This document shows, one piece after another, positions 21,685 through 37,314 of a stretch of DNA of 64,000 bases. The DNA lies in the sequence record MT478991.1. The stretch is one strand, 5' to 3'. How positions within the stretch are numbered: position 1 is the stretch's first letter; each line of letters opens with the position of its first letter. The stretch comes from Escherichia phage vB_EcoM_011D4. A program made the translations under genes and the position numbers. The notes under the pieces were generated by a model that worked only from the letters and a program-made list of their open reading frames with translations, had not been told where the DNA came from and searched no databases.

Positions 21685-23928
21685 TTACAGCTTGCAAGAT
21701 GAGCACTCGCTAGCGTCTTCCGTACCATCAGCACCATCACGCACGTTAGCGTAATACAGGGTTTTCAGACCGTAATATTGAGCAAACAGCATATCATCTA
21801 ACACATCAGCAATATCGACTTTACCAGTCTTATAAGTGCTTGGATCATAGGATGTATTGGAACTAATCGCCTGATCTACAAACTTCTGCATGATCGCTGC
21901 CAGTGTCAGATAGGGCTTGTTACCTTTCTTGATCAGTGTCCAAAGCAGGTCAATAACATCAGCATTATTCTCTACGTTCGGAATAACCTGATTAAATTGC
22001 CCTTCTTTCGATCCTTTAACCGATACAATCCCGCGAGGCGGTTCAATACCATTTGTGCTGTTAGACACCTGAGAGGACGACTCACAAGGCATCAGCGCCG
22101 ACAGTGTACTGTTACGAATGCCATATTTTTTCAGGTCTTCGCGCAGTTCTTCCCAATCCATCTCATACACCGGATCAACCAGTTCATCTACTGTCTTTTT
22201 GTACCAGTCGATAGGAAGTTCACCGCGACCATAGCGTGTTTCGTGCATCAGTTCGCAAGCACCCTTCTCTTTAGCCAGTCGCACACTAGCCTTAATCAGA
22301 GCATATTGCAAGCGTTCAAACGTTTTATGCGTAAACTCGTTAGCGTCTTCATATGTGAAGAAATTATCTGCTAGATATGATGCAAAGTTAGTAACACCAA
22401 CACCCAGAGAGCGACGTTTTTTGGCTGTCAGAGCTTGTTCTACAGGATAATCCTGATAATCTAACAGGTTGTCAAGTGCACGCACCATAACCATAGCAAT
22501 GCGTTCTACTTCTTCCATATTTTCGATATCGAAATTACCTAAAACATATGCTGCCAAAGTACATAGGCTAATTTCTGAATCATCCCGACCCATCGGTTTA
22601 GTAGGCAGTGCAATTTCACAACACAGGTTAGATTGTTTAATCGGTGCTACATTACGAATAAACGCCCCATGATTGTTCATGTTGTCTGTGAACGTTGGGT
22701 AGATTCGACCAGTGTTAAAACGTTCAATTGCCACCGCTAAAAACAGGTCTTCGGCTTTAACACGAGTTTTACGAACACTCGGATCTTTTTCCAGTTTTTC
22801 GTAAAGCTGGCGGAAACCTTCCTCATCTCGGAAGTACAGATCCCACAACAAGCCACCCGCAACATCTGGACTAAACAGAGTAATGTAATCCCGTTTAAGG
22901 AATCGCTCTACCATCAGGTTATTAATCTGTACGCCGTAATCAAGATGACGAATGCGGTTATCTTCCACCCCCTTATTGTTCTTCAACACAATCAGACTTT
23001 CAAACTCTAAATGCCACATTGGGTAATAGAGAGTCGCCGCCCCGCCACGAATACCGCCTTGTGAGCATGACTTAACGGCAGTCTGAAAATGTTTCCAGAA
23101 TGGGATAACGCCAGTATGACGAACTTCACCATGCCCGATCTTAGATCCTTCCGCGCGAATCATACCAGCATTGATACCGATACCAGCACGCTTACTAATA
23201 TACTTGATGATTGCATTTGCTGTTTCGTTGATGCCCTGCAATGAGTCATCACTTTCAATAACCACACACGAACTAAATTGTCGTGTCGGGGTACGCACAC
23301 CCGCCATAATCGGAGTAGGCAGAGAGATTTGCTTATTCGCAACAGCATTATAAAAATCAATCACATGTTCAAGTCGATTTTCTGTCTCTTCTTGATGCAA
23401 GCACATACCGATCAGCATATACGCAAATTGCGGTGTTTCAATGATTTTCTTAGTGCTGCGATCCTGAACAAGATATTTCTCTTTTAACTGCATCGCACCA
23501 GCGTAGGTCATTTTAAAATCAAGTTTATGATCGATGAATTTCTCCAGATATTCCACTTCTTCGCGGGAATACTTTTGCAGAATTTCGCGATCATATTTTC
23601 CGGTTGCAATATTACGCTCAATATGGCTATAAAAATCAATCGGTTGGAATTGACCGTATACTGATTTACGAAGCGCGAACATTGCAAGGTTACTTGCTAC
23701 ATATTGATAATCAGGTGTTTCTACAGTAATGTTATCTGCGGCGACCTTAATCAATACTTTCTGGATATCATTGGTAGACATACCTTCTGTCAGAAGTGGT
23801 TCAACCATATCAAACAATTCATATGGATCAACGTTATGACCTTCGGCTGCCGCTTCCAGAATTTTCATTACTTTTTCTTTTTCAAACGGAACAGTCAGAC
23901 CGGAAGACTTAACAACATTTTTAATCAT
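21685..23928 (-). CDS. nrdA: ribonucleotide reductase large (alpha) subunit
   Basis: 747 aa; ATP-cone N-terminus; catalytic-site regions (NLCCEI, PCESS); synteny. Confidence 0.9.
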   Translation of the reverse strand: MIKNVVKSSGLTVPFEKEKVMKILEAAAEGHNVDPYELFDMVEPLLTEGMSTNDIQKVLIKVAADNITVETPDYQYVASNLAMFALRKSVYGQFQPIDFYSHIERNIATGKYDREILQKYSREEVEYLEKFIDHKLDFKMTYAGAMQLKEKYLVQDRSTKKIIETPQFAYMLIGMCLHQEETENRLEHVIDFYNAVANKQISLPTPIMAGVRTPTRQFSSCVVIESDDSLQGINETANAIIKYISKRAGIGINAGMIRAEGSKIGHGEVRHTGVIPFWKHFQTAVKSCSQGGIRGGAATLYYPMWHLEFESLIVLKNNKGVEDNRIRHLDYGVQINNLMVERFLKRDYITLFSPDVAGGLLWDLYFRDEEGFRQLYEKLEKDPSVRKTRVKAEDLFLAVAIERFNTGRIYPTFTDNMNNHGAFIRNVAPIKQSNLCCEIALPTKPMGRDDSEISLCTLAAYVLGNFDIENMEEVERIAMVMVRALDNLLDYQDYPVEQALTAKKRRSLGVGVTNFASYLADNFFTYEDANEFTHKTFERLQYALIKASVRLAKEKGACELMHETRYGRGELPIDWYKKTVDELVDPVYEMDWEELREDLKKYGIRNSTLSALMPCESSSQVSNSTNGIEPPRGIVSVKGSKEGQFNQVIPNVENNADVIDLLWTLIKKGNKPYLTLAAIMQKFVDQAISSNTSYDPSTYKTGKVDIADVLDDMLFAQYYGLKTLYYANVRDGADGTEDASECSSCKL

Positions 23929-23956
23929 ATTACCTCACTTCATATTTTAGCAGGAA

Positions 23957-23997
23957 CAAGTTTATCCTCCATATTGGGGGCTTTCGCCCCCCTTTGT
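23957..23997 (-). repeat. direct repeat with GGGGGCGAAAGCCCCC hairpin, left flank of methyltransferase pseudogene
   Basis: About 35-bp match to the copy at 24757-24797. Confidence 0.5.
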
Positions 23998-24754
23998 TAC
24001 AAGTCTAACGTATTTTGATGTATTCTGTCAACGGCAATTTGATAATATTTTTCGTCTTTCTCTATGCCGACAAAATTTCGATTTAAGTTTCGACACGCAA
24101 CACCAGTTGTTCCACTTCCCATAGTAAAATCCAGAACAGTTTCCCCCTCGTTGGTGTAAGTTTTTATCAGATATTCCATTAACTCTACTGGTTTCTGTGT
24201 TGGGTGCAATCCTCTTTCTTTACATCGACCGGAATAACTTACAATAGATTCTGGGCATTTGGTATCGTATGTTTTATTATTATAGCTTTGGTTTGTGACT
24301 AAAGGGATCGCCCCACTTTCATTTTTGTTGCTTCCTTTTTTAATTGGCTTGTCTCTTTTCGTCATTTGCGGATAATAAAGTGGCATTTTCCAGTTCTTGA
24401 AAATATGATAACATCTTCATGAATTTTTAACGGTTGTCGTTTTGCTTGAACAAAATTTGCCGCAAATTTTTTATCCCACACCCAAGAATAACAGAATCCG
24501 TTCATATTACTATGAATTAATGCCGTTGTGAATGGTTGAGACGCGGTCATGACAATGGCATTTTTAGGTTTAATTATTCTATTAATCGCCGCCCACATTT
24601 CAGTAAATGGTATAACACTATCCCATTTACACGCTGTTGTTCCATATGGAGGATCACAAAGAATTAAATCTACGCTTTCCGTTTCAATTTCTTTCATCAG
24701 TTCCAGACAATCCCCGTTCATCAACCAGATTTTGTCAGTTCTAACGTCATTCAT
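23997..24754 (-). pseudogene. beta-class DNA methyltransferase (N6A or N4C) split by a +1 frameshift
   Basis: ORF 24362-24754 has DPPY motif IV; ORF 23997-24386 has HPTQKP and DFTMGSGTT (motif I); the two overlap by 25 nt in different frames. Confidence 0.55.
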
Positions 24755-24756
24755 GA

Positions 24757-24797
24757 TATACTATTCCTCATAAATGGGGGCTTTCGCCCCCTTTGTT
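24757..24797 (-). repeat. direct repeat with GGGGGCGAAAGCCCCC hairpin, right flank of methyltransferase pseudogene
   Basis: About 35-bp match to the copy at 23957-23997. Confidence 0.5.
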
Positions 24798-26029
24798 TAT
24801 ACTGCCATTTGAGCGGTGATCGCTGGATGGCTTTGATAGTTGTGGATTTTAAAGTCTTTCGGAGTCTTTGTCAATACCTCATCTAAAGATTTAAATTCCG
24901 GCAACTCAATTGTTGGTTTATCAAACGGAACACGGCTTAACTGTTCCATAACTTGATCAAAATGGTTTTTGTAAATGTGAGTATCTCCACCAGAGAAAAT
25001 CAGTTCTCCTACCTCAAGATCACACATTTTCGCTATGATGTGAGTTAACAGCGCATAGCTGGCAACATTAAAGGGCAAGCCCAAAAAGCTGTCTACGCTT
25101 CGCTGAAACCACATACAAGATAGTTTACCTTCATTGACGTAGAATTGCACGAAAGGATGACATACACCTAATACAGCATTATGTGTTCCTTGTACGTTCC
25201 ATGCGTCAATGATAATACGTCTATTATACGGATCATTCTTGATTAAGTCAATCACGTTTTGTAACTGGTCTTCCCAAATCTTCGGGCGATAGACATATTC
25301 TTCATCGTCTTTAGTGCTTGATGTGTCTACGTCCATACTAACAAAGATCGTGGTATCCGGTGCTATAATATCCCCACCCAGATAATCACTATCAAGCAGA
25401 TAACCGAAATAACCATCATCTACCCATTCCTGGAATCCCCACAAGCAATATGCATCATTAACAAAATTAGATTGGGTCTTCCAGTGATCTGCTACTAAGA
25501 ATTGATTATATTCAGAATCAAACTCTTCATAACGCATACCACGCCAGATAGCACATAAACGGTCTTCTGTTTCATTGGTTGGCGTAAAGTCTTCTACCCA
25601 CGGGTGTTTAAATGTATGTGTATATTTGCTATTAACGCGCTTAATTTTGATTTCACCATGTGGATGAATCGGTTTGCGTCGCCACGCCATACCATACATA
25701 TTGCCGACATTATAACCATTGAATCGCAAAGGATTCTTTTCTTTCATATCAAGACAGTTACCGCGCCAAATGTCAAAGGCTTCTTCGTCAAACTTACCGC
25801 GTGTAATTTCCTGTAAGCGACGGCGGTCAAGTGATCCTTCCATAAACCATAGCAACTCGCCAATTACAGAGGCTGTAGCCATCTTTTTAGTAGTCAGTAA
25901 GGGGAAACCCTTGCTTAAATCAATTCGCATCTCTGCACCGAATTTAGAGAGCGTACCGACCCCCGTGCGGTCTTCACGAGGCCAGCCATTATCAAGAACA
26001 TCACGCAACAGTTTCAAATATTCTTTCAT
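24797..26029 (-). CDS. td: thymidylate synthase with a large internal insertion
   Basis: N-terminal EDRTGVGT, catalytic core LGVCHPFVQFY, C-terminal HPAI..AV; 410 aa vs about 286 aa recalled for T4 Td; no intron (continuous frame). Confidence 0.85.
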   Translation of the reverse strand: MKEYLKLLRDVLDNGWPREDRTGVGTLSKFGAEMRIDLSKGFPLLTTKKMATASVIGELLWFMEGSLDRRRLQEITRGKFDEEAFDIWRGNCLDMKEKNPLRFNGYNVGNMYGMAWRRKPIHPHGEIKIKRVNSKYTHTFKHPWVEDFTPTNETEDRLCAIWRGMRYEEFDSEYNQFLVADHWKTQSNFVNDAYCLWGFQEWVDDGYFGYLLDSDYLGGDIIAPDTTIFVSMDVDTSSTKDDEEYVYRPKIWEDQLQNVIDLIKNDPYNRRIIIDAWNVQGTHNAVLGVCHPFVQFYVNEGKLSCMWFQRSVDSFLGLPFNVASYALLTHIIAKMCDLEVGELIFSGGDTHIYKNHFDQVMEQLSRVPFDKPTIELPEFKSLDEVLTKTPKDFKIHNYQSHPAITAQMAV

Positions 26030-27793: not shown

Positions 27794-28735
27794 TTAGAGA
27801 TTCAGAAGAGAATCAAGGTCATCCAGATCCGAAGCGGAGGAAGTACCGCCACCCAGGTCCAGAGATGCCATCAGGTCATCAGCGGAAGAACTCGACGCGG
27901 TGATAGCTGAGGTAGTACCAGCGTCGAATGCATTCATCTGAGCATCGAAATCATCAAGCTGGCTGTTAATCGCTGCCGCAGCACTGGAAGCCGCAGCACC
28001 AGCTACCATAGACACGCCCATAGTTTTCTTAAATTTGGTTTCCAGTTCATCAAACGGTTTAAACTGGCTAGGTGCTACAATCTCACCCAGATCAACCATG
28101 TTTTCCATCAGATATTTCTGATATGCTTCGTCTTCAATTTTCGGAAGCTGTGATTGCTGCATGAAACGAGAATCATCATAGTTCTGGTGTTTATCAACCT
28201 TCTTAGCTTTCAGGAGGAAGTTAGCGCCAGAGAACACACAAGTTACATCGACCGGAACTTCGCCCATATCGGTATTCACGTTCACCATTGCAACGATCTT
28301 ATCATAAATTTTCTGACCGAAGCGGAATTTGAATACCTTACCTTCGTTTTCTGGTGCTTGAGGATCTTTCAGTACCAGAATATTTGCGTAGTAAGACGCT
28401 TTACGTTTAATCAGTTGCCATTCGGTTTTATCGGTATTGTACAGATCTTTTTCGTTAATATATTTGCACACCGGGCAAGAATCAAAATCACCGTGGGTGC
28501 TGGAGCAGTTTTCCCAATACCATTTTCCATTAACTTTGAAGGAATGGTTTACCAGTTTCACAATCGGCAGACCGTCTTCTGTCTTAGACGGCAGGAAGCG
28601 AATCAGGGCTTCACCGTTACCCGCTGCATCAGTCTTAATCTTCCACTCTTTCGGATCTTCTTTGGAAAAACCGTTGCCACCTTTCAGTGCGGCCAGTTGA
28701 GCTTGCAGTTTGGAGCTATCTTGACGTTTAAACAT
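27794..28735 (-). CDS. 32: single-stranded DNA-binding protein gp32
   Basis: Strong similarity to recalled T4 gp32 (FLPSK, CSSTHGD.DSCPVC zinc site, [15 protein letters not shown], acidic C-terminus); start at ATG 28735 (track start is GTG). Confidence 0.9.
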
Positions 28736-28771
28736 ATTCACTATTCCTTCTTTTGATTAATTTACTAGACT

Positions 28772-28799
28772 ATTATACAGATTTAAATTTACTTGTCAA
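28772..28799 (-). promoter_or_regulatory. sigma70-like promoter for gene 32, inside HNH gene 3 prime end
   Basis: TTGACA-16-TATAAT about 36 nt upstream of gp32 ATG. Confidence 0.5.
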
Positions 28800-29382
28800 A
28801 TACTTTATTAATTATATCTAACAACTTTGGTTTTCTATTTTCAAATTCTAACATTTCTTCGGGAGAAATATCAACTACTTCTGTTTTATGAAAGAAATCA
28901 GGATCTATTGCATCGGCAACAAAATTTCTAGCTAACGCAGCGGCCTTTTCGTAATCATAAAGACCTAGATACAAAAGTTTCCCTCTATCAACCTGAATAC
29001 ATGCTTTATATTTACCATCTCGTTTATAAAAACTTACTCCGATATACTCAGACGTCTTACCTTTTTGCTTTCCAACATTTCTTGAGTTTTGTTGGTCAGT
29101 CGCATCTCTCAAGTTTTCAATCCGATTATCGGTTATAACTCGGTTTACATGGTCAACACATTTTGGCATATATCCATGATGCATGAAGAAAATTATTCTA
29201 TGCTCTTTGTGCAATCGACCATCAAACTTAACTACTCTATATCCAATTCTTGGATTTACATAGCCCGCTCTAGATCCGACTTTATGCTTTCGGTTTGTCG
29301 ATATCTTGCGAATCAGCTTACCGTTATCATATTTAAAGAGTTCATGACAACGAGCATACAATTCAGGATCATATGTTTTCAC
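28789..29382 (-). CDS. HNH homing endonuclease with AP2 DNA-binding domain
   Basis: HNH_3-type motif (HHGYMPKCVDHVNRVITDNRIENL) followed by AP2-like YIGVSFYKRDGKYKA; apparent GTG start overlapping gp59 3 prime end. Confidence 0.7.
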   Translation of the reverse strand: MKTYDPELYARCHELFKYDNGKLIRKISTNRKHKVGSRAGYVNPRIGYRVVKFDGRLHKEHRIIFFMHHGYMPKCVDHVNRVITDNRIENLRDATDQQNSRNVGKQKGKTSEYIGVSFYKRDGKYKACIQVDRGKLLYLGLYDYEKAAALARNFVADAIDPDFFHKTEVVDISPEEMLEFENRKPKLLDIINKVFDK

Positions 29383-30046
29383 CTTTTAACCTCGATATTT
29401 CTTTACACTCTTTAACTACTTTAACAAATAATGTTCTTGCTTTTGCGGCGTCAATAACAAGTAGTTTCTTGTACGCCTTCATTTTAACACTATAAGTTTG
29501 CCAAATCAAGTCTTTGGCTACCTTGTCGTGTTCGTCGATTATATTTAGAAAGCTATCTAACAACATAAACGACTCAAACGATATAATCCGATTTTGCAGT
29601 AGTTTAAAGATACCGCTAGTTTCGGTTGCGGGATTGTATGTAATTAGCTCTTTAAGAGTAACCCCGCGTTTCTCTGAGAAGTATACAAGACTTTTAATGT
29701 CATCGTCAAATCGTGTTGCAGCATCAGTGATCTTACCGATATACTCCATGTAAAATCCGTATGCGTCAACATCAGTGATTTCACCTACCCATGCATCGGT
29801 ATTGGCTACCAGATTGCTTAGGAATAGGAAGTATAATTCTCTTAGATTGTACTTTTCCGCTAATTTCGCGAAATAATACTTATCTCTGCGTTTATTGAAT
29901 GCGGCATCAGACAACCGCATCCTCCAATTGTATTTTACGCAATCATAACGCCCGTTCATGTGAGCTTTCATCATGCAATATAACATATACACAGATTTAG
30001 CATTAATTCGCATATCTGGATCTGGAGGAAGACGGTTTCTGATCAT
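29369..30046 (-). CDS. 59: helicase loader gp59
   Basis: KSVYMLYCMMKAHMNGRYDCVKYNWRMRLSDAAFNKRRDKYYF closely matches recalled T4 gp59 N-terminus. Confidence 0.85.
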   Translation of the reverse strand: MIRNRLPPDPDMRINAKSVYMLYCMMKAHMNGRYDCVKYNWRMRLSDAAFNKRRDKYYFAKLAEKYNLRELYFLFLSNLVANTDAWVGEITDVDAYGFYMEYIGKITDAATRFDDDIKSLVYFSEKRGVTLKELITYNPATETSGIFKLLQNRIISFESFMLLDSFLNIIDEHDKVAKDLIWQTYSVKMKAYKKLLVIDAAKARTLFVKVVKECKEISRLKGENI

Positions 30047-32400: not shown

Positions 32401-35400
32401 ATGGCAGATTTTTCTCAACATTTCAAGGCCACATTTGGCTTTGACGCTGGTAATGAAAAGGTCGTCAATGTAGCATTGGCTGATAAGAATGTCAACACCG
32501 ATGCGGTCAACGTTGAATTTTTCAATTACCATAATGGTATTACTCAGTATGACACAACTCGCGGTTATGATCAATACGGAACTACAATCTATCAAAACCG
32601 TCCATATTATGCAAAAGAAGATATCACAAAGCCAGCAGGTGATTTTGACCCGACTAAATGGCAAGCACTGCGCACGGACCCACGTTGGGATTATGTTGCA
32701 GCAACTTCCGGTGATACTCCTTTACAGTCTGGTGATTATATCGCAGCAGATGGTCAATTTGCAAACTTGACTTTCTCTATGCCAACTAAACCAGCAGAGG
32801 GAGACACTATAACAGTAAAAGATATCGGTGGCAAGTGTGGTGTTAACGAATTATCGTTCTTGAGTTCAGGACATGAGTTTTACCATAACGGTAATGTGTA
32901 TAACCGAAAATGGTATTGCACTACCCCGTATGCAATGAACTATTTCATCTTTGTTCGTAATCGTTGGCATGTTTATCAGACAGGAACAGAGCCACGCGGT
33001 GTGTATGCACAGCCAGCGATTGATGCTATTCAAATGCAGAATGGTGATCAGGTATTTCGTCGTAGTTCGTTGGGTAATATTACCTTAGTGCTTCCTAAGT
33101 TTGCCAACAATGGCGACATGATCCAGACTACAGACCTTGACGGATTAACCGCAACCAACCACGTTACGGTTAAAGTTCATGAGCACGCAGAAGAACAATC
33201 AATTGGCACGTCCGGTCTAAAAGAGATTATCGGTAAGCGTAGCGGTCATGGTGTATTCATCTTTGACAAGACGGAAAACTTATGGCGTTTGTGGGATGGT
33301 GATCAGTCTGTTCGTCTTAAACCGATCATCGATGACACTCGCTTGCAACCTAATAGCTATGTTGCCGTATTTGGTGATCGTGATGTTACTCTGACGCTGC
33401 CGACCAATGTCGAGCCGGGTGATCGTATTCAAGTTTCTATGCAGTATATGCACGGAAACCAGAATTGCCGTATTATCACCGCCACAGAGGATACAAAAAT
33501 CCTTATGCAGAAAAACATGGTTCAGTTTCCTAAGCGTAGCGAGTACCCATTCAATGGGACCGATACATGGACGGGAGTATCTGAATTGTCTTTCAACGCT
33601 GCAAATGATTATGTACCTTATCTGGAGTTCTCTTATTCAGAAGGTGATGATGGTAAGAAATACTGGTTGGTGGCACATGCTCACCCGATTGTAGAACGAG
33701 TAGATCCGACTCGTAAAGATCGTGTTGGTGTAATTGCACTGGCTACCCAGGATGAAACAAACAAAAACCATGAAGATAATCCTAGCGACGAAGTTGCGGT
33801 GACTCCAAAGGTTCTGGCTAATAAAACAGCCAACGAAACTCGACGCGGTATTGCTCGCATTGCAACTCAAGCGGAAACGCATCAAGATACTGGTTCCAGC
33901 TTCCTGGATGATGTTATCGTTACGCCTAAAAAGTTAAATAATTGTGTTGCTACCGAAGCCCGTCGTGGTGTGATGGAAATTGCAACCCAGCACGAAACCA
34001 ATGAAGGTTTAGACGATACCCGCGCTATTACTCCTAAGAAATTAGAAGAACGTCGCGCTTCCGAAGATCTCGCTGGTATTGCTGAAATTGTTCAGGCTGG
34101 CGGTAGTGCTGCCGCTCGACGTGGCGAAGCTGGTACAGGGATCTATAACATCAACGACCATGCTAAAATTGTTACGCCACAAAACATCAACGAAGTCAAG
34201 GCGACCGAAACTTCCCGTGGTGTTGGCTATCTGGCAACTGACGCGGAAGTGCAAGGGGCTACAGAATCAACCCCGCAAGATGCTTTACTAATCACGACTC
34301 GCACGCTAACGAAACGTACTGCTACCGAATCGCGCACTGGTATCGCTGAAATTGCAACTCAGGAAGAAACAAACTTAGGTCAAAGTGATAACCATATCAT
34401 CACGCCTAAAAAGCTGCATACTCGCCGCGCAACGGAAACTTTACATGGTTTAGCAGAAATTGCAACTCAACCGGAGTTTGACGCAGGTCTTGACGATGCT
34501 CGCATTTCTACCCCATTGAAGATTAAAACCTTCTTTGAGAATGCACAGCGTTTGAAAGTAGATCCGACTCAGGGGCTTAACCTTACTGGTGATTTGTGGC
34601 AAGGTATCATGATTCGCGGTCTGGACGCAACCGAAGACACAAAAGGTGTCGCTAAAGTTGCTACTACTCAGCTTACGGATGCTGGTCAAGATGATACTAC
34701 AATCATCACGCCTAAAAAGCTGCAAGGCAAAAAGGCCACCGAAGGTAAAGAAGGTATTATCCGAGTTGGTACTCAAGCCGAAACCGTGGCTGGTACACTG
34801 GCTAATGTAGCAATTTCTCCGAAGAACTTCAAATATGTTGTTCAGACAGAGGATACATGGAAAGCAACCGAAGCGCGTCGTGGTTTCTTGAAAGTTGCCA
34901 CTCAGGAAAACTGTTTTGTTGGTGATAATCTGCAAGGTTCTACTCAAGAACTAGGAAACTACCAGCATGACGGAATTGCTGTTACTCCGAAAGGATTAAA
35001 CTACGCACTTGCTAATTTCTTACCTAAGATGGCAACCGCTCAGAATAGTTTGAAATTGGGTAACGTAGAGGCCGCTAAATGGGCGCGTAGAGACATTGAC
35101 CAGACCATAGAGAGCAATTACACGTTTAATAAAAACGTTAACGTGAAGGGCGATTTAGGGTGCTTAAAATCTGGTTCCTTTGAAACTCTGTCTGTGACTA
35201 AGAACTCGACCGATGGTCCGAGTAATGGTCATCTGGTGTTGGGTGAGCGTGGAGTTGACGGTCACACCGGAATTACTCTGCATGGCACAACCGCATCGGA
35301 AGGCATGAAAAACTCGTGGTCTATTATCGTTGGTGGTACTGGAACAGCGCAAGTTGTTGATAGTGATGCTATCGCTTTCGGTAAAATCAATGATGGTGGA

Positions 35401-36141
35401 GTCGTCGAGCATTACGCCTTTGCTATGGAACACAATGGCGACGCGACAGCATATAGAGACTTTATTGCAGGTCGTAACCTGTATGCGAAACAAGGCGGTT
35501 TATACATTGTTGATCAGTCTAATCCGGCAATGACTCGTTCCCCAGATGGTATGCTGAATATCGGTCACGGTGGAAGTGTTAACATCAAGGCAGGTTATCA
35601 AACGTTAACTACAGAGATCGCCGGACAGAAATATCAGATCGTACACGCAGGAAACGCTGACGAAGTTCTTAACCGTCAGTTTGTTAAGAATGCTGGCGAT
35701 ACAATGGTCGGTAAGCTGACTATGGATAATGCGCCTATTGTTTCTGTTAAGCATGAAGCTAGCGCGGCAACCGCTCCAGCAATCGGTAACATCGGTTTCT
35801 GGAATATGCGAGTTACTACCCAGAACATCAAAGAAACTTATCCAGAGAAGAAAAACGGTACTCTGATGCAATGGGGTACTGACGCGGACGGGCTTACCCA
35901 GCTTTGGTCCCCTGATGGTACTCATAAACATTATATCCGTTCCGGTACTGGTGGTCAATGGACTGCATGGGGTGAAATTTACACCAAACAGAATAAGCCT
36001 ACCGCTCAGGAAATCGGGGCAGTAGTTGCAGAAGGTGGTTTAATGAACTCTATGACGGTTCGTGATTGGATCAAAGTTGGTAATGTTAAAATCATCGCCA
36101 ATAATCTGACTCGTACCGTAGACTTTATCTGGGAAGACTAA
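32401..36141 (+). CDS. 34: long tail fibre proximal subunit gp34
   Basis: 1246 aa; late promoter TATAAATA at about 32365; AAAGGAGA RBS; internal ITPKKL/IAEIATQ repeats. Confidence 0.8.
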   Translation: MADFSQHFKATFGFDAGNEKVVNVALADKNVNTDAVNVEFFNYHNGITQYDTTRGYDQYGTTIYQNRPYYAKEDITKPAGDFDPTKWQALRTDPRWDYVAATSGDTPLQSGDYIAADGQFANLTFSMPTKPAEGDTITVKDIGGKCGVNELSFLSSGHEFYHNGNVYNRKWYCTTPYAMNYFIFVRNRWHVYQTGTEPRGVYAQPAIDAIQMQNGDQVFRRSSLGNITLVLPKFANNGDMIQTTDLDGLTATNHVTVKVHEHAEEQSIGTSGLKEIIGKRSGHGVFIFDKTENLWRLWDGDQSVRLKPIIDDTRLQPNSYVAVFGDRDVTLTLPTNVEPGDRIQVSMQYMHGNQNCRIITATEDTKILMQKNMVQFPKRSEYPFNGTDTWTGVSELSFNAANDYVPYLEFSYSEGDDGKKYWLVAHAHPIVERVDPTRKDRVGVIALATQDETNKNHEDNPSDEVAVTPKVLANKTANETRRGIARIATQAETHQDTGSSFLDDVIVTPKKLNNCVATEARRGVMEIATQHETNEGLDDTRAITPKKLEERRASEDLAGIAEIVQAGGSAAARRGEAGTGIYNINDHAKIVTPQNINEVKATETSRGVGYLATDAEVQGATESTPQDALLITTRTLTKRTATESRTGIAEIATQEETNLGQSDNHIITPKKLHTRRATETLHGLAEIATQPEFDAGLDDARISTPLKIKTFFENAQRLKVDPTQGLNLTGDLWQGIMIRGLDATEDTKGVAKVATTQLTDAGQDDTTIITPKKLQGKKATEGKEGIIRVGTQAETVAGTLANVAISPKNFKYVVQTEDTWKATEARRGFLKVATQENCFVGDNLQGSTQELGNYQHDGIAVTPKGLNYALANFLPKMATAQNSLKLGNVEAAKWARRDIDQTIESNYTFNKNVNVKGDLGCLKSGSFETLSVTKNSTDGPSNGHLVLGERGVDGHTGITLHGTTASEGMKNSWSIIVGGTGTAQVVDSDAIAFGKINDGGVVEHYAFAMEHNGDATAYRDFIAGRNLYAKQGGLYIVDQSNPAMTRSPDGMLNIGHGGSVNIKAGYQTLTTEIAGQKYQIVHAGNADEVLNRQFVKNAGDTMVGKLTMDNAPIVSVKHEASAATAPAIGNIGFWNMRVTTQNIKETYPEKKNGTLMQWGTDADGLTQLWSPDGTHKHYIRSGTGGQWTAWGEIYTKQNKPTAQEIGAVVAEGGLMNSMTVRDWIKVGNVKIIANNLTRTVDFIWED
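33780..35000 (+). repeat. about 10 tandem degenerate 35-40 codon repeats inside gene 34
   Basis: Recurring peptide unit ATE.R.GIAEIATQ.E ... ITPKKL in gp34 translation. Confidence 0.6.
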
Positions 36142-36146
36142 TTAAA

Positions 36147-36162
36147 GGGGGCGAAAGCCCCC
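36147..36162 (+). repeat. GGGGGCGAAAGCCCCC hairpin between genes 34 and 35
   Basis: Same hairpin as at 23976, 24776 and 11107 (coding-strand sense in each case). Confidence 0.5.
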
Positions 36163-36174
36163 TATGGGGTTATT

Positions 36175-37314
36175 ATGACACAAGATATAGAATTACGCAA
36201 CACTGGAATTAGGTTTGCGCATTTCGACGAAGACTCTGCGACATTTACCAGCATTTCAGAAAATAACTCTGTGATGTATAAGCTGGAAGTGCGCGGATCT
36301 AATGCGGATTCTACCAAACCAGCAAGAATTAGATTTAATGGAGTGGAGATCGTTGGCACTGGCTATGAAAATGGCCTAAATTTTAAAGTTCTTACTCCAA
36401 CTGGACAACTACACGAAGAAAAGGTATTCTATGGTCGCGGTGCTGTTTTGGCAATGCGTGATTATCTTTCTTTGCTGAAAGGTGATTATATCATTGCGAT
36501 GGCAACTCATGGAGAATTGTTTGCAGATCCGATAAGTGATGTTGTATTTTCTAAGCTGGGATCGGTATCATTCCCGAATCACATTTTGTTACAGCAAATG
36601 CCTCGTGTATCATATGCAGCAATTTATTCTACGAAAATGGGTAAAATTGTTTGTGAGGGTATGCAAGCGACCCACGGGGAAGGACAAGATTCATCTATAC
36701 AAATTGAGAAAGTCTATGATACTATAGATGATCTTGCTATAACAGGAACACCACAACGATTTTTAGATTATCCGGTTGAGTATGTTAGCGAAGATGCCGA
36801 ACATTTCGAGCTAATACAATGGCCTCACGATGAGATCAGCGCACCACTTGAAGATTTTAACATAAAGGCAGGTGACAAACTATCAATATCCTTTGAATTG
36901 TTCCGTGATAGTGCCGCAGCCGCAGCCAACGTAACAGCGCGTTTCTATCACAACTACTTCACCGATGGACAATATAAAACTGGTGTTCGATACAATGCCA
37001 GCAAAAAAGACCAATGGGAAAAGTTTGAAGCAGTCTATACAGTACCGGAAGGTGTCGATGGTGTAGTAACTGGTTGTATCAGATATCCAACCAACTCAAA
37101 TGAAGGTATTGTTAAAATTAGAAACATACTAATAACGCCGATCAGTGGAGTCGTTAAAACTACTGGTCCTACTTCATTTGGTGTTAATGGTGTTAGAACA
37201 ACTCATATTCAGGATAACGGTGATTTTACTAACCCTGTAATGAGTCTTCTTAAACTACCCAGAGATAATAAACACATCACATCCAACAACTTTAAAGAGT
37301 TCGATGTTGATTAA
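36175..37314 (+). CDS. 35: long tail fibre hinge protein gp35
   Basis: 379 aa; synteny between 34 and 36; followed by rho-independent terminator. Confidence 0.6.
   Translation: MTQDIELRNTGIRFAHFDEDSATFTSISENNSVMYKLEVRGSNADSTKPARIRFNGVEIVGTGYENGLNFKVLTPTGQLHEEKVFYGRGAVLAMRDYLSLLKGDYIIAMATHGELFADPISDVVFSKLGSVSFPNHILLQQMPRVSYAAIYSTKMGKIVCEGMQATHGEGQDSSIQIEKVYDTIDDLAITGTPQRFLDYPVEYVSEDAEHFELIQWPHDEISAPLEDFNIKAGDKLSISFELFRDSAAAAANVTARFYHNYFTDGQYKTGVRYNASKKDQWEKFEAVYTVPEGVDGVVTGCIRYPTNSNEGIVKIRNILITPISGVVKTTGPTSFGVNGVRTTHIQDNGDFTNPVMSLLKLPRDNKHITSNNFKEFDVD

What the first reader, a model, noticed from the sequence alone, without database searches (positions are those of the whole stretch)
23950..24800. 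Frameshifted beta-class DNA methyltransferase inserted between nrdA and td, flanked by hairpin-containing direct repeats
Seen in sequence: ORF 24362-24754 carries motif IV DPPY; ORF 23997-24386 carries motif X HPTQKP and motif I DFTMGSGTT. They overlap by 25 nt in different frames, so an intact beta-class N6A/N4C methyltransferase needs a +1 shift. Both flanks (23957-23997 and 24757-24797) contain an approximately 35-bp direct repeat CCTC.ATA..TGGGGGCTTTCGCCCCC.TTTGTT. Established knowledge: T4 carries the td intron and I-TevI in this neighbourhood, not a methyltransferase. Inference: a cassette acquired by recombination at hairpin repeats, now a pseudogene, a sequencing error, or a programmed frameshift.
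Basis: partly seen in the sequence, partly recalled or inferred. Interest (0 to 1): 0.6.

Follow-up and report, generated by a model that had tools for sequence, protein, structure and literature searches.

The report
Frameshifted methyltransferase cassette in RB49-like phage
An RB49-like coliphage has picked up an 800-bp foreign DNA adenine methyltransferase gene at the small hairpin between its td and nrdA genes, and in this isolate one missing A breaks the gene in two, which is tidy but ordinary phage genome evolution.

Summary
The window is a Krischvirus (RB49-like); both half-ORFs match proteins of Escherichia phage vB_EcoM_011D4 exactly. ORFs 24362-24754 and 23997-24386 (minus strand) are the two halves of one 252-aa beta-class N6-adenine-type DNA methyltransferase (PF01555; motif order DPPY, HPTQKP, FTMGSGTT).

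Three metagenomic Krischvirus contigs carry the same gene intact at the same td-nrdA site. Their DNA is identical to the window across the gene except for one base: GGAAAAATG there, GGAAAATG here (A run at 24386-24389). A separate assembly of run SRR11793931 shows the same deletion, so it is probably a real, very recent knockout. A sequencing error is not excluded. A programmed frameshift is unlikely: the ribosome would need a -1 shift, not +1, and there is no slippery heptamer, no downstream structure and no conservation.

RB49 has a single GGGGGC-GAAA-GCCCCC hairpin between td and nrdA, and none of the 102 related GenBank phage records that match the flanks contains the insert. In the window the 800-bp insert lies between two copies of that hairpin, with the crossover inside it. 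This fits the stem-loop recombination and mini-circle shuffling described for RB49/phi1, but without the promoter part of a PeSL.

It is a new member of known kinds, of low to moderate interest.

The parts
24797..26029 (-). td (thymidylate synthase, 410 aa), the gene upstream of the insert; context
   Evidence: ORF list. PF00303 at 1.1e-83 across residues 2-410. RB49 annotates the same 410-aa td.
24846..24874 (-). Sigma-70-like promoter match TTGACA-17-TAAAAT inside the 3' end of td; possible driver of the methyltransferase-nrdA transcript (inferred)
   Evidence: 11 of 12 consensus match. Such matches are not enriched over shuffles in this region (37 found, 32 expected), so function is unproven.
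24765..24799 (.). td-proximal copy of the 35-nt repeat, with hairpin GGGGGC-GAAA-GCCCCC (mRNA sense) at 24776-24791
   Evidence: Repeat family D1. Folds at -14.8 kcal/mol, z = -3.2. Identical to RB49 from the hairpin towards td.
24755..24775 (-). Cassette leader ATTTATGAGGAATAGTATATC with a GAGG Shine-Dalgarno-like element (24766-24769) before the methyltransferase ATG; absent from RB49
   Evidence: Sequence and alignment with RB49. No exact match in IMG/VR.
24362..24754 (-). N-terminal half-ORF (130 aa) holding the catalytic region with motif IV DPPY. The last 8 residues, CHFIIRK*, are out-of-frame read-through
   Evidence: Exact match to QMP82558.1 'DNA methylase' of phage vB_EcoM_011D4.
24386..24389 (-). 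Frameshift site: a run of 4 A (mRNA sense) where the intact copies have 5 A (GGAAAAATG)
   Evidence: 4-way DNA alignment, the only difference inside the gene. Adding one A reproduces P0001 exactly.
23997..24386 (-). C-terminal half-ORF (129 aa) holding the target-recognition region, motif X HPTQKP and motif I FTMGSGTT (AdoMet binding)
   Evidence: PF01555 at 1.1e-26. Exact match to QMP82557.1.
23965..23999 (.). nrdA-proximal copy of the repeat, with hairpin at 23976-23992 (one extra G/C in the run); overlaps the methyltransferase stop codon (23997-23999)
   Evidence: Repeat family D1. Folds at -14.7 kcal/mol. Identical to RB49 from the hairpin towards nrdA.
23975..24774 (-). The 800-bp segment absent from RB49. 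The boundaries can slide within the repeated hairpin
   Evidence: The gap in the RB49 alignment is exactly 800 columns. None of the 102 related GenBank records that match the flanks covers the insert. GC is 36.3% against 40.4% for the window.
21685..23928 (-). nrdA (ribonucleotide reductase large subunit, 747 aa), the gene downstream of the insert; context
   Evidence: ORF list, RB49 annotation and Pfam domains of the homologous gene in L002.
36141..36163 (+). Third copy of the same hairpin (GGGGGCGAAAGCCCCC on the + strand mRNA), between the 1246-aa tail-fibre-like ORF and the next ORF. It shows the hairpin is a general intergenic element of this phage

Best explanation
The element is an orphan beta-class DNA methyltransferase gene, probably N6-adenine-specific, with no restriction partner. 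It entered a Krischvirus genome as an 800-bp cassette of leader, gene and hairpin, by recombination inside the pre-existing td-nrdA intergenic hairpin. The most economical route is a single crossover between the resident hairpin and the hairpin of a circular or linear donor from a related phage, which leaves one hairpin copy on each side. When intact, the 252-aa enzyme would be transcribed with the early nucleotide-metabolism genes and would methylate phage DNA at a short, unknown motif to protect it from host restriction; this step is inferred, not shown. In this isolate (vB_EcoM_011D4) loss of one A from an A5 run at codon 122/123 separates the catalytic half (motifs IV-VIII) from the target-recognition and AdoMet-binding half (motifs X, I-III). 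The gene is therefore most likely a very recent knockout.
For: Shown:
- The fused protein matches PF01555 over the full profile.
- An AlphaFold model (pLDDT 83, pTM 0.82) superposes on the N6-adenine methyltransferases M.BceJIV, CcrM, MboIIA, M1.HpyAVI and RsrI (TM about 0.7). Sequence matches to the same enzymes appear.
- The motif order is DPPY, then HPTQKP, then FxGxG.
- An exactly matching intact 252-aa protein, P0001, is encoded between td and nrdA in three independent metagenome contigs.
- The DNA is identical over the whole cassette except for A5 versus A4, and adding one A regenerates P0001.
- The junction FS..GKMP.YYPQ is conserved, with G122, P125, Y127 and P129 invariant in 68 homologues.
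- The Logan assembly of SRR11793931 is 100% identical to the window over 6393 bp and carries the same A4 allele.
- RB49 has one hairpin and no insert, and none of the 102 related GenBank records that match the flanks has the insert. Each window copy matches RB49 on its outer side only, so the joints lie inside the hairpin.
- The cassette has 0 substitutions in 759 nt between genomes whose flanks differ by 3.3-3.6% (Poisson probability about 3e-12). The window's nrdA is closer to insert-free RB49 (98.2%) than to the insert-bearing contigs.
- Cassette GC is 36.3% and GC3 about 31%, against about 40% and 38.5% for the neighbouring genes.
- The closest other relatives (70-73% identity) are accessory genes in lambdoid-type prophage regions and in another T4-like phage.
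- Published precedent: recombination at GGGG...CCCC stem-loops creates indels and mini-circles in RB49/phi1 (PMC2839356; PMC4122927).
Against: No methylation or expression data exist, and the target motif cannot be derived from 25%-identical solved relatives. N4-cytosine activity is not strictly excluded, because PvuII and the rotifer N4C methyltransferase are also structural matches. I could not confirm that SRR11793931 is this phage's own read set, or which platform produced it, so a systematic homopolymer error remains possible. No donor with the same leader was found, so the mini-circle route is inferred from the architecture alone. The direction of change, gain versus loss in most lineages, rests on parsimony and composition. 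On the mRNA strand the hairpin is followed by only a weak U tract (AUUUAU or AAUAUG), so its role as a terminator is uncertain. The scan calls it a terminator only on the opposite strand.
Confidence: 0.78

Rival explanations
1. The frameshift is a sequencing or assembly error. The phage really carries the intact A5 gene and makes an active methyltransferase.
For: The difference is a single base in a homopolymer, and nothing else differs from the intact copies over 759 nt. Four other sources encode intact alleles.
Against: An independent k-mer assembly (Logan, SRR11793931) is 100% identical to the window over 6.4 kb and gives the same A4 allele. Only split products were called from that run. 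An A5 run is short for a consensus-level error. The eight other A5-A6 runs in the gene are all intact.
Confidence: 0.17
2. The two-ORF form is functional. Possible routes are -1 ribosomal slippage on GGA-AAA-U, two polypeptides that reassemble, or on/off phase variation of the A run.
For: A lysine tRNA could re-pair perfectly after a -1 slip on A-AAA, and this would give exactly the wild-type sequence. The C-terminal half begins with an ATG at the junction. PHROGs holds separate families for N-terminal and C-terminal halves of this enzyme type (phrog_12862, phrog_18293), so split annotations recur in phages.
Against: There is no X XXY YYZ heptamer, since the P-site GGA to UGG re-pairing is poor. 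The 71 nt tested around the site (24330-24400) fold no better than shuffles (z = +1.3). The split is not conserved: relatives at the same locus and all listed homologues are continuous. The spacing of GG to the internal ATG is too short for a good ribosome-binding site (sequence). A 4-5 nt run is far shorter than known phase-variable tracts (established knowledge). Only 1 of the 40 best phage matches was in two pieces.
Confidence: 0.05
3. The cassette is ancestral to Krischvirus and has been lost from most lineages by hairpin-to-hairpin deletion, rather than gained recently.
For: Two direct hairpin copies are exactly the substrate for the mini-circle excision demonstrated in RB49/phi1 (PMC2839356). 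An empty site with one hairpin is also the expected excision product.
Against: The cassette shows zero substitutions while the flanks diverge 3.3-3.6%. Its base composition is foreign. It is absent from all 102 related GenBank records that match the flanks and from IMG/VR. Insert-bearing genomes are not each other's closest relatives in nrdA.
Confidence: 0.1

Closest known systems
Beta-class (group beta) N6-adenine DNA methyltransferases of Pfam PF01555, e.g. M.BceJIV, CcrM, M.MboIIA, M1.HpyAVI (DpnA-like), M.RsrI
   Same: Same fold (Foldseek E about 1e-17, TM about 0.7). Same permuted motif order IV (DPPY), X (HPTQKP), I (FxGxG). Similar size of about 250 aa. Full-length Pfam match.
   Different: Only 22-26% identical to any solved enzyme, so the recognition sequence is unknown. 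It has no restriction partner and is phage-borne. In this isolate it is split by a frameshift.
PeSL (promoter-early stem-loop) mediated modular shuffling in RB49/phi1 (Arbiol et al. 2010, PMC2839356; Comeau et al. 2014, PMC4122927)
   Same: Same phage group. A GGGG...CCCC stem-loop lies at both ends of an accessory gene that is present or absent between close relatives. The crossover maps inside the stem-loop. The architecture is what mini-circle integration predicts.
   Different: No consensus early promoter is fused to the hairpin on the td side. The site lies inside the conserved td-nrdA nucleotide-metabolism block rather than a hyperplastic region. The cargo is an identifiable enzyme, not an ORFan. 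Only 3 copies of this hairpin occur in 64 kb.
Phage-encoded orphan methyltransferases used against host restriction (e.g. T4 Dam, P1 Dam; recalled from established knowledge)
   Same: A solitary methyltransferase in a virulent or temperate phage, expected to self-methylate phage DNA. Homologues sit as accessory genes next to head or terminase genes in many phages.
   Different: I recall T4 Dam as belonging to a different permutation class and sitting at a different locus; this was not tested here. This gene is rare in its genus and inactivated in this isolate.
Mobile insertions of the T4 td/nrd region (td intron with I-TevI, mobE; recalled from established knowledge)
   Same: Same genomic neighbourhood as a hotspot for optional DNA.
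   Different: The insert has no intron structure and no endonuclease gene. It is intergenic, and its joints are homologous hairpins.

Membership tests
Beta-class N6A/N4C DNA methyltransferase (PF01555) | Significant match to the PF01555 profile above the gathering score | tested here: met
   The fused protein scores 119.7 bits against a cut-off of 26.7 and covers profile positions 1-220 of 221. The C-terminal half alone scores 94.6 bits. The N-terminal half alone scores 19.4 bits, below the cut-off.
Beta-class N6A/N4C DNA methyltransferase (PF01555) | Permuted motif order: catalytic motif IV (D/N/S)PP(Y/F) first, then the target-recognition region, then motif X and AdoMet motif I (FxGxG) | tested here: met
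   DPPY lies at residues 34-37, HPTQKP at 184-189 and FTMGSGTT at 210-217 of the repaired protein.
Beta-class N6A/N4C DNA methyltransferase (PF01555) | Rossmann-type methyltransferase fold superposable on solved beta-class enzymes | tested here: met
   The AlphaFold model has pLDDT 83.1 and pTM 0.82. Best PDB matches are M.BceJIV, CcrM, PvuII, MboIIA, M1.HpyAVI and RsrI, all at probability 1.00.
Beta-class N6A/N4C DNA methyltransferase (PF01555) | One continuous reading frame encoding both halves | tested here: not met
   The window has A4 instead of A5 at 24386-24389, so the two ORFs overlap by 25 nt in different frames. The feature is met in contigs L002-L004.
Beta-class N6A/N4C DNA methyltransferase (PF01555) | Demonstrated transfer of methyl groups to adenine N6 (or cytosine N4) in a defined DNA motif | not testable with these tools
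   Needs methylome sequencing or a biochemical assay. DPPY favours N6-adenine only by analogy.
PeSL recombination cassette (Arbiol 2010) | Stable G-run/C-run stem-loop in the intergenic space on both sides of a variable gene | tested here: met
   Hairpins at 23976-23992 and 24776-24791 fold at -14.7 and -14.8 kcal/mol. The insert is absent from relatives.
PeSL recombination cassette (Arbiol 2010) | Consensus sigma-70 early promoter with an AT-rich upstream region, overlapping or abutting the stem-loop | tested here: inconclusive
   On the td side the nearest match, TTGACA-17-TAAAAT, ends 55 nt upstream of the stem. On the nrdA side a 10/12 match, TTGACA-18-TAGACT, ends 10 nt before the stem. 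Promoter-like matches are not enriched over shuffles (37 against 32 +/- 4.7).
PeSL recombination cassette (Arbiol 2010) | Formation of excised mini-circles by recombination between the flanking motifs | not testable with these tools
   Needs inverse PCR on phage DNA, as in PMC2839356.
Programmed -1 ribosomal frameshift | Slippery heptamer X XXY YYZ at the frame junction | tested here: not met
   The sequence is U GGA AAA. Only the A-site lysine codon can re-pair.
Programmed -1 ribosomal frameshift | Stimulatory RNA structure downstream of the site | tested here: not met
   The 71 nt around the site have a minimum free energy of -3.2 kcal/mol, and 189 of 200 shuffles fold at least as well.
Programmed -1 ribosomal frameshift | The frameshift is conserved in relatives | tested here: not met
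   Identical genes at the same locus, and all listed homologues, are single ORFs.
Intrinsic (rho-independent) terminator | GC-rich stem followed directly by a U-rich tract on the transcribed strand | tested here: inconclusive
   The stem is present. On the gene (-) strand the tails are AUUUAUGA and AAUAUGGA. The scan criteria are met only on the + strand (tails TTTGTTTA and CTTTGTTA).

The most novel reading that the evidence does not exclude
A bare G5-C5 hairpin, with no attached promoter and located inside the conserved td-nrdA core block, may be enough to act as an integration and excision site for circular gene cassettes. That would extend the PeSL mini-circle mechanism beyond hyperplastic regions. 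The A4/A5 run might in addition act as a reversible switch that turns phage self-methylation off where m6A-dependent restriction (Mrr-type) is met, and on where classical restriction is met.
Probability: 0.12. Interest if true: 0.55.

Novelty: new member of a known kind. Interest (0 to 1): 0.25.

Why it matters
The locus is a clean natural example of how T4-like phages gain accessory genes. The empty site, the filled intact site and the filled broken site are all available at nucleotide resolution, and the crossover can be placed inside a 16-nt hairpin. This supports the stem-loop recombination model proposed for RB49/phi1 and suggests that the promoter part of a PeSL is not required. In practice, the two 'DNA methylase' CDS annotated in vB_EcoM_011D4 should be treated as one disrupted gene. 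The DNA modification status of Krischvirus phages is still unsettled (PMC13390438) and bears on their sensitivity to restriction and on their use in phage therapy. The intact allele gives a testable adenine-methylation variant within the genus. None of this changes current concepts.

Tried and rejected
- Close DNA copies of the insert were sought in GenBank phages, complete E. coli genomes (only 70-76% identity over short stretches of prophage methyltransferases), IMG/VR and JGI metagenomes. None was found, so no donor could be identified.
- A transposon or target-site-duplication origin was rejected. The insert has no transposase and no terminal inverted repeats beyond the hairpins, and each repeat copy equals the resident hairpin on its outer side only.
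- A homing-endonuclease or intron origin, as in T4 td, was rejected because the insert holds only the methyltransferase frames.
- I tried to trace the isolate's paper and sequencing platform. A full-text search for '011D4' found nothing relevant. The poultry coliphage study I recalled (PMC7494930) contains no Krischvirus, so that attribution was dropped.
- I looked for similar hairpins around the 71%-identical methyltransferase of another T4-like contig (L008) and found none.
- The target motif could not be predicted. The best characterised relatives are only 22-26% identical, and the NCBIfam equivalogs (CcrM, YhdJ-like) score far below their cut-offs.
Full report
**Identity of the window and of the ORFs**

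All genes in this part of the window are on the minus strand, in the order td (24797-26029), ORF 24362-24754, ORF 23997-24386 and nrdA (21685-23928). The flanks match RB49, Phi1, JSE and about 100 other Krischvirus-type phages at 96-97% identity. An exact-sequence look-up shows that the two short ORFs are QMP82558.1 ('DNA methylase') and QMP82557.1 ('DNA methylase family protein') of Escherichia phage vB_EcoM_011D4. The window is therefore that phage or an identical one. The two halves are already annotated in GenBank, but as separate proteins.

**Check of the observation**

The 130-aa ORF contains CDPPYG. The 129-aa ORF contains HPTQKP and DFTMGSGTT. The two overlap by 25 nt. Joining them at the overlap gives a protein that matches Pfam PF01555 (N6_N4_Mtase) at 2.3e-34 over profile positions 1-220 of 221. 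The C-terminal half alone scores 94.6 bits, and the N-terminal half alone falls below the gathering score.

The direct repeat is found by the repeat finder at 23965-23999 and 24765-24799, exactly 800 nt apart. The hairpin core with its flank occurs three times in the window, against none in 100 shuffles.

One correction is needed. The C-terminal half is in the -1 (= +2) frame relative to the N-terminal half. The DNA therefore needs one additional base, and a ribosome would need a -1 shift rather than +1. The +1 frame runs into stop codons.

**What the protein is**

- tblastn against GenBank phages aligns the repaired protein in one piece (residues 6-246) to intact 'DNA methylase' genes of many unrelated phages, at up to 61% identity.
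- The large protein collection gives thousands of PF01555 relatives at up to 73% identity.
- An alignment of 68 relatives shows that the junction FS..GKMP.YYPQ is conserved, with G122, P125, Y127 and P129 invariant. The reconstruction is therefore correct to the residue.
- By sequence, the nearest solved proteins are M1.HpyAVI (DpnA-like), MboIIA, M.BceJIV, CcrM and RsrI.
- An AlphaFold model built on the 68-sequence alignment (pLDDT 83, pTM 0.82) superposes best on M.BceJIV and CcrM, then PvuII, MboIIA, M1.HpyAVI and RsrI.

The motif order IV, X, I defines the beta permutation class. DPPY in motif IV is typical of N6-adenine enzymes (established knowledge), but N4-cytosine activity is not strictly excluded. 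NCBIfam equivalogs (CcrM, the YhdJ-type PRK11524) score far below their cut-offs, so the recognition sequence cannot be assigned. The insert contains no restriction gene, so this is an orphan methyltransferase.

**The frameshift**

It is encoded on three contigs:
- Logan SRR10692239, 20.9 kb (L002)
- ENA ERZ27297797, 8.4 kb (L003)
- ENA ERZ28635246, 0.9 kb (L004)

In the two longer contigs (L002, L003) it lies between td and nrdA in a Krischvirus gene order; the 900-bp L004 aligns from the end of td to just short of nrdA. A fourth intact allele, P0124, has two amino-acid changes and comes from another ENA contig.

A four-way DNA alignment shows that the window differs from these copies inside the gene at a single position. 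They read GGAAAAATG and the window reads GGAAAATG. The run is at window 24386-24389, and inserting one A regenerates P0001.

The frameshifted allele is not confined to the GenBank record. A contig that Logan assembled from run SRR11793931 is 100% identical to the window over 6393 bp and yields the same split products. I infer, but cannot prove, that this run is the isolate's own read set. If so, the deletion is in the reads and not in the submitter's assembly. I put a real mutation at roughly 0.75-0.8 and an artefact at roughly 0.15-0.2.

A programmed frameshift is unlikely for three reasons:
- The site, U GGA AAA, is not an X XXY YYZ heptamer.
- The RNA around and after it (24330-24400) folds no better than shuffles (z = +1.3).
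- Relatives at the same locus, and all listed homologues, have a single ORF.

The break falls in a loop between strands 112-119 and 132-139 of the model. It separates the catalytic half from the target-recognition and AdoMet-binding half. Reassembly of two fragments is conceivable. However, the internal ATG has a poor ribosome-binding context and nothing supports expression of the second half. PHROGs has separate families for N-terminal and C-terminal halves of such enzymes, which shows that split annotations recur. Only 1 of the 40 best phage hits was in two pieces, which looks like sporadic decay or error rather than a system.

**The insert and its repeats**

In RB49, td and nrdA are separated by 68 nt containing one hairpin: TAA-ACAAA-GGGGGCGAAAGCCCCC-AATATGGAGGATAAAC... 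(mRNA sense). The window aligns to RB49 with a gap of exactly 800 nt.

The td-side copy in the window is identical to RB49 from td through the hairpin and then continues with new sequence, ATTTATGAGGAATAGTATATC-ATG. The nrdA-side copy is preceded by the methyltransferase stop (TAA-CAAA-GGGGGG...) and is identical to RB49 from the hairpin onwards. Both joints therefore lie inside the hairpin.

This is the product expected from a single crossover between the resident hairpin and a hairpin carried by the incoming DNA. The few bases next to the hairpin on the cassette side (ATTTATGAGGA, TAACAAAG) resemble the resident ones (AATATGGAGGA, TAAACAAAG) without being identical. That points to a donor with the same kind of intergenic hairpin, probably a related T4-like phage. 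I could not find that donor.

A third copy of the same hairpin lies between the 1246-aa tail-fibre-like ORF and the next ORF on the plus strand, again with the GAAA loop on the mRNA. The hairpin is thus an ordinary intergenic element of this phage. On the mRNA it forms a 6-bp G/C stem with a GNRA tetraloop at about -14.8 kcal/mol and is followed by only a weak U tract. The terminator scan accepts it only on the opposite strand. It may be an attenuator or RNA-end stabiliser, or a terminator for antisense transcription. This remains open.

**Recent and lateral spread**

- The cassette shows no substitution in 759 nt among the window, L002, L003 and L004. The flanks of L002 and L003 differ from the window by 3.3-3.6%. 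The chance of zero differences at that divergence is about 3e-12.
- In nrdA the window is closer to insert-free RB49 (98.2%) than to the insert-bearing contigs.
- Cassette GC is 36.3% and GC3 about 31%, against about 40% and 38.5% in the neighbouring genes.
- None of the 102 GenBank phage records that match the flanks contains the insert. IMG/VR has nothing above 68% protein identity.
- The next-closest relatives (70-73%) sit as accessory genes among tail or head genes of lambdoid-type phage regions (L006; L007, from an E. coli assembly). One lies between nrdG and the rII genes of a different T4-like phage.
- The extra G of the hairpin run is on the nrdA-side copy in the window and L002, but on the td-side copy in L003 and L004. 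This would fit two different crossover points or later exchange between the copies. It could also be homopolymer noise.

Together these points favour a recent gain followed by spread through recombination among co-infecting Krischviruses. Ancient presence with repeated loss is less likely.

**Comparison with what is known**

Arbiol et al. 2010 (PMC2839356) and Comeau et al. 2014 (PMC4122927) described PeSLs in RB49/phi1. These are composite early-promoter plus GGGG...CCCC stem-loop motifs that flank ORFans. They recombine with crossovers mapped in or next to the stem-loop, and they release mini-circles that could reintegrate.

The present locus works like that model and lies in the same phage group. 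It fails or leaves open the promoter criterion: promoter-like matches lie 55 nt upstream of the td-side stem and 10 nt upstream of the nrdA-side stem, and such matches are not enriched over shuffles. It also lies in a conserved gene block and carries a recognisable enzyme. I therefore describe it as stem-loop-mediated cassette insertion of the PeSL type, not as a bona fide PeSL.

The protein is a clear member of the beta-class PF01555 methyltransferases, except that the reading frame is broken in this isolate.

**Likely function (inferred)**

Krischviruses lack the T4-type hydroxymethylcytosine pathway, and at least some of them have canonical cytosines (PMC13390438). An added adenine methyltransferase would therefore be expected to protect against some host restriction systems. 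Loss of the gene could be neutral during propagation on permissive laboratory hosts. It could even be favoured on hosts with methyladenine-dependent restriction. No data bear on this.

**Verdict**

The locus is explained by known mechanisms. It is a new member of known kinds, and interest is low to moderate (0.25).

Noticed in passing
window 24797-26029 (-): The td product is 410 aa but spans a 266-position thymidylate synthase profile end to end, so it carries about 145 extra residues as an internal insertion. RB49 has the same 410-aa td. L002 and L003 have 406 aa, owing to a 12-nt indel at window 25501-25512. The insertion has no Pfam match. Krischvirus cytosine modification is reported as unexplained (PMC13390438), which may make this unusual Td worth a look.
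   Followed up: partly
window 28789-29382 (-): A 197-aa ORF with HNH_3 and AP2 domains, a free-standing homing-endonuclease type, lies next to the gp32 gene (27794-28741) on its upstream side. The corresponding ~590 bp (about 28807-29393) are absent from contig L002, where the gp59 and gp32 genes are adjacent.
   Followed up: partly
L003 7480-8019: Metagenomic relative L003 carries a different 179-aa HNH_3/AP2 gene just upstream of nrdB. The window lacks it. This is another optional endonuclease insertion in the nrd region.
   Followed up: no
window 36141-36163: A third copy of the GGGGGC-GAAA-GCCCCC hairpin lies between the 1246-aa tail-fibre-like ORF (32401-36141, +) and the next ORF (36175-37314, +), in the same orientation relative to the mRNA as the td-nrdA copies.
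   Followed up: partly
window 23976-23992 and 24776-24791; L002-L004: The G-run of the hairpin is 5 or 6 long, and the longer run sits on opposite sides of the cassette in different genomes: nrdA side in the window and L002, td side in L003 and L004. This may reflect different crossover points, exchange between copies, or homopolymer error.
   Followed up: partly
window 24755-24775 and 23940-23975 (-): Directly after each hairpin there is a short upstream ORF. ATGAGGAATAGTATATCATGA (6 codons) overlaps the methyltransferase start by ATGA. ATGGAGGATAAACTTGTTCCTGCTAAAATATGA (10 codons) precedes nrdA and is also present in RB49. These are possibly chance occurrences.
   Followed up: no
PHROGs families phrog_12862 and phrog_18293: The PHROGs phage protein library contains separate families for the N-terminal and the C-terminal halves of this methyltransferase type. 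Split or truncated versions have therefore been annotated repeatedly in phage genomes.
   Followed up: no
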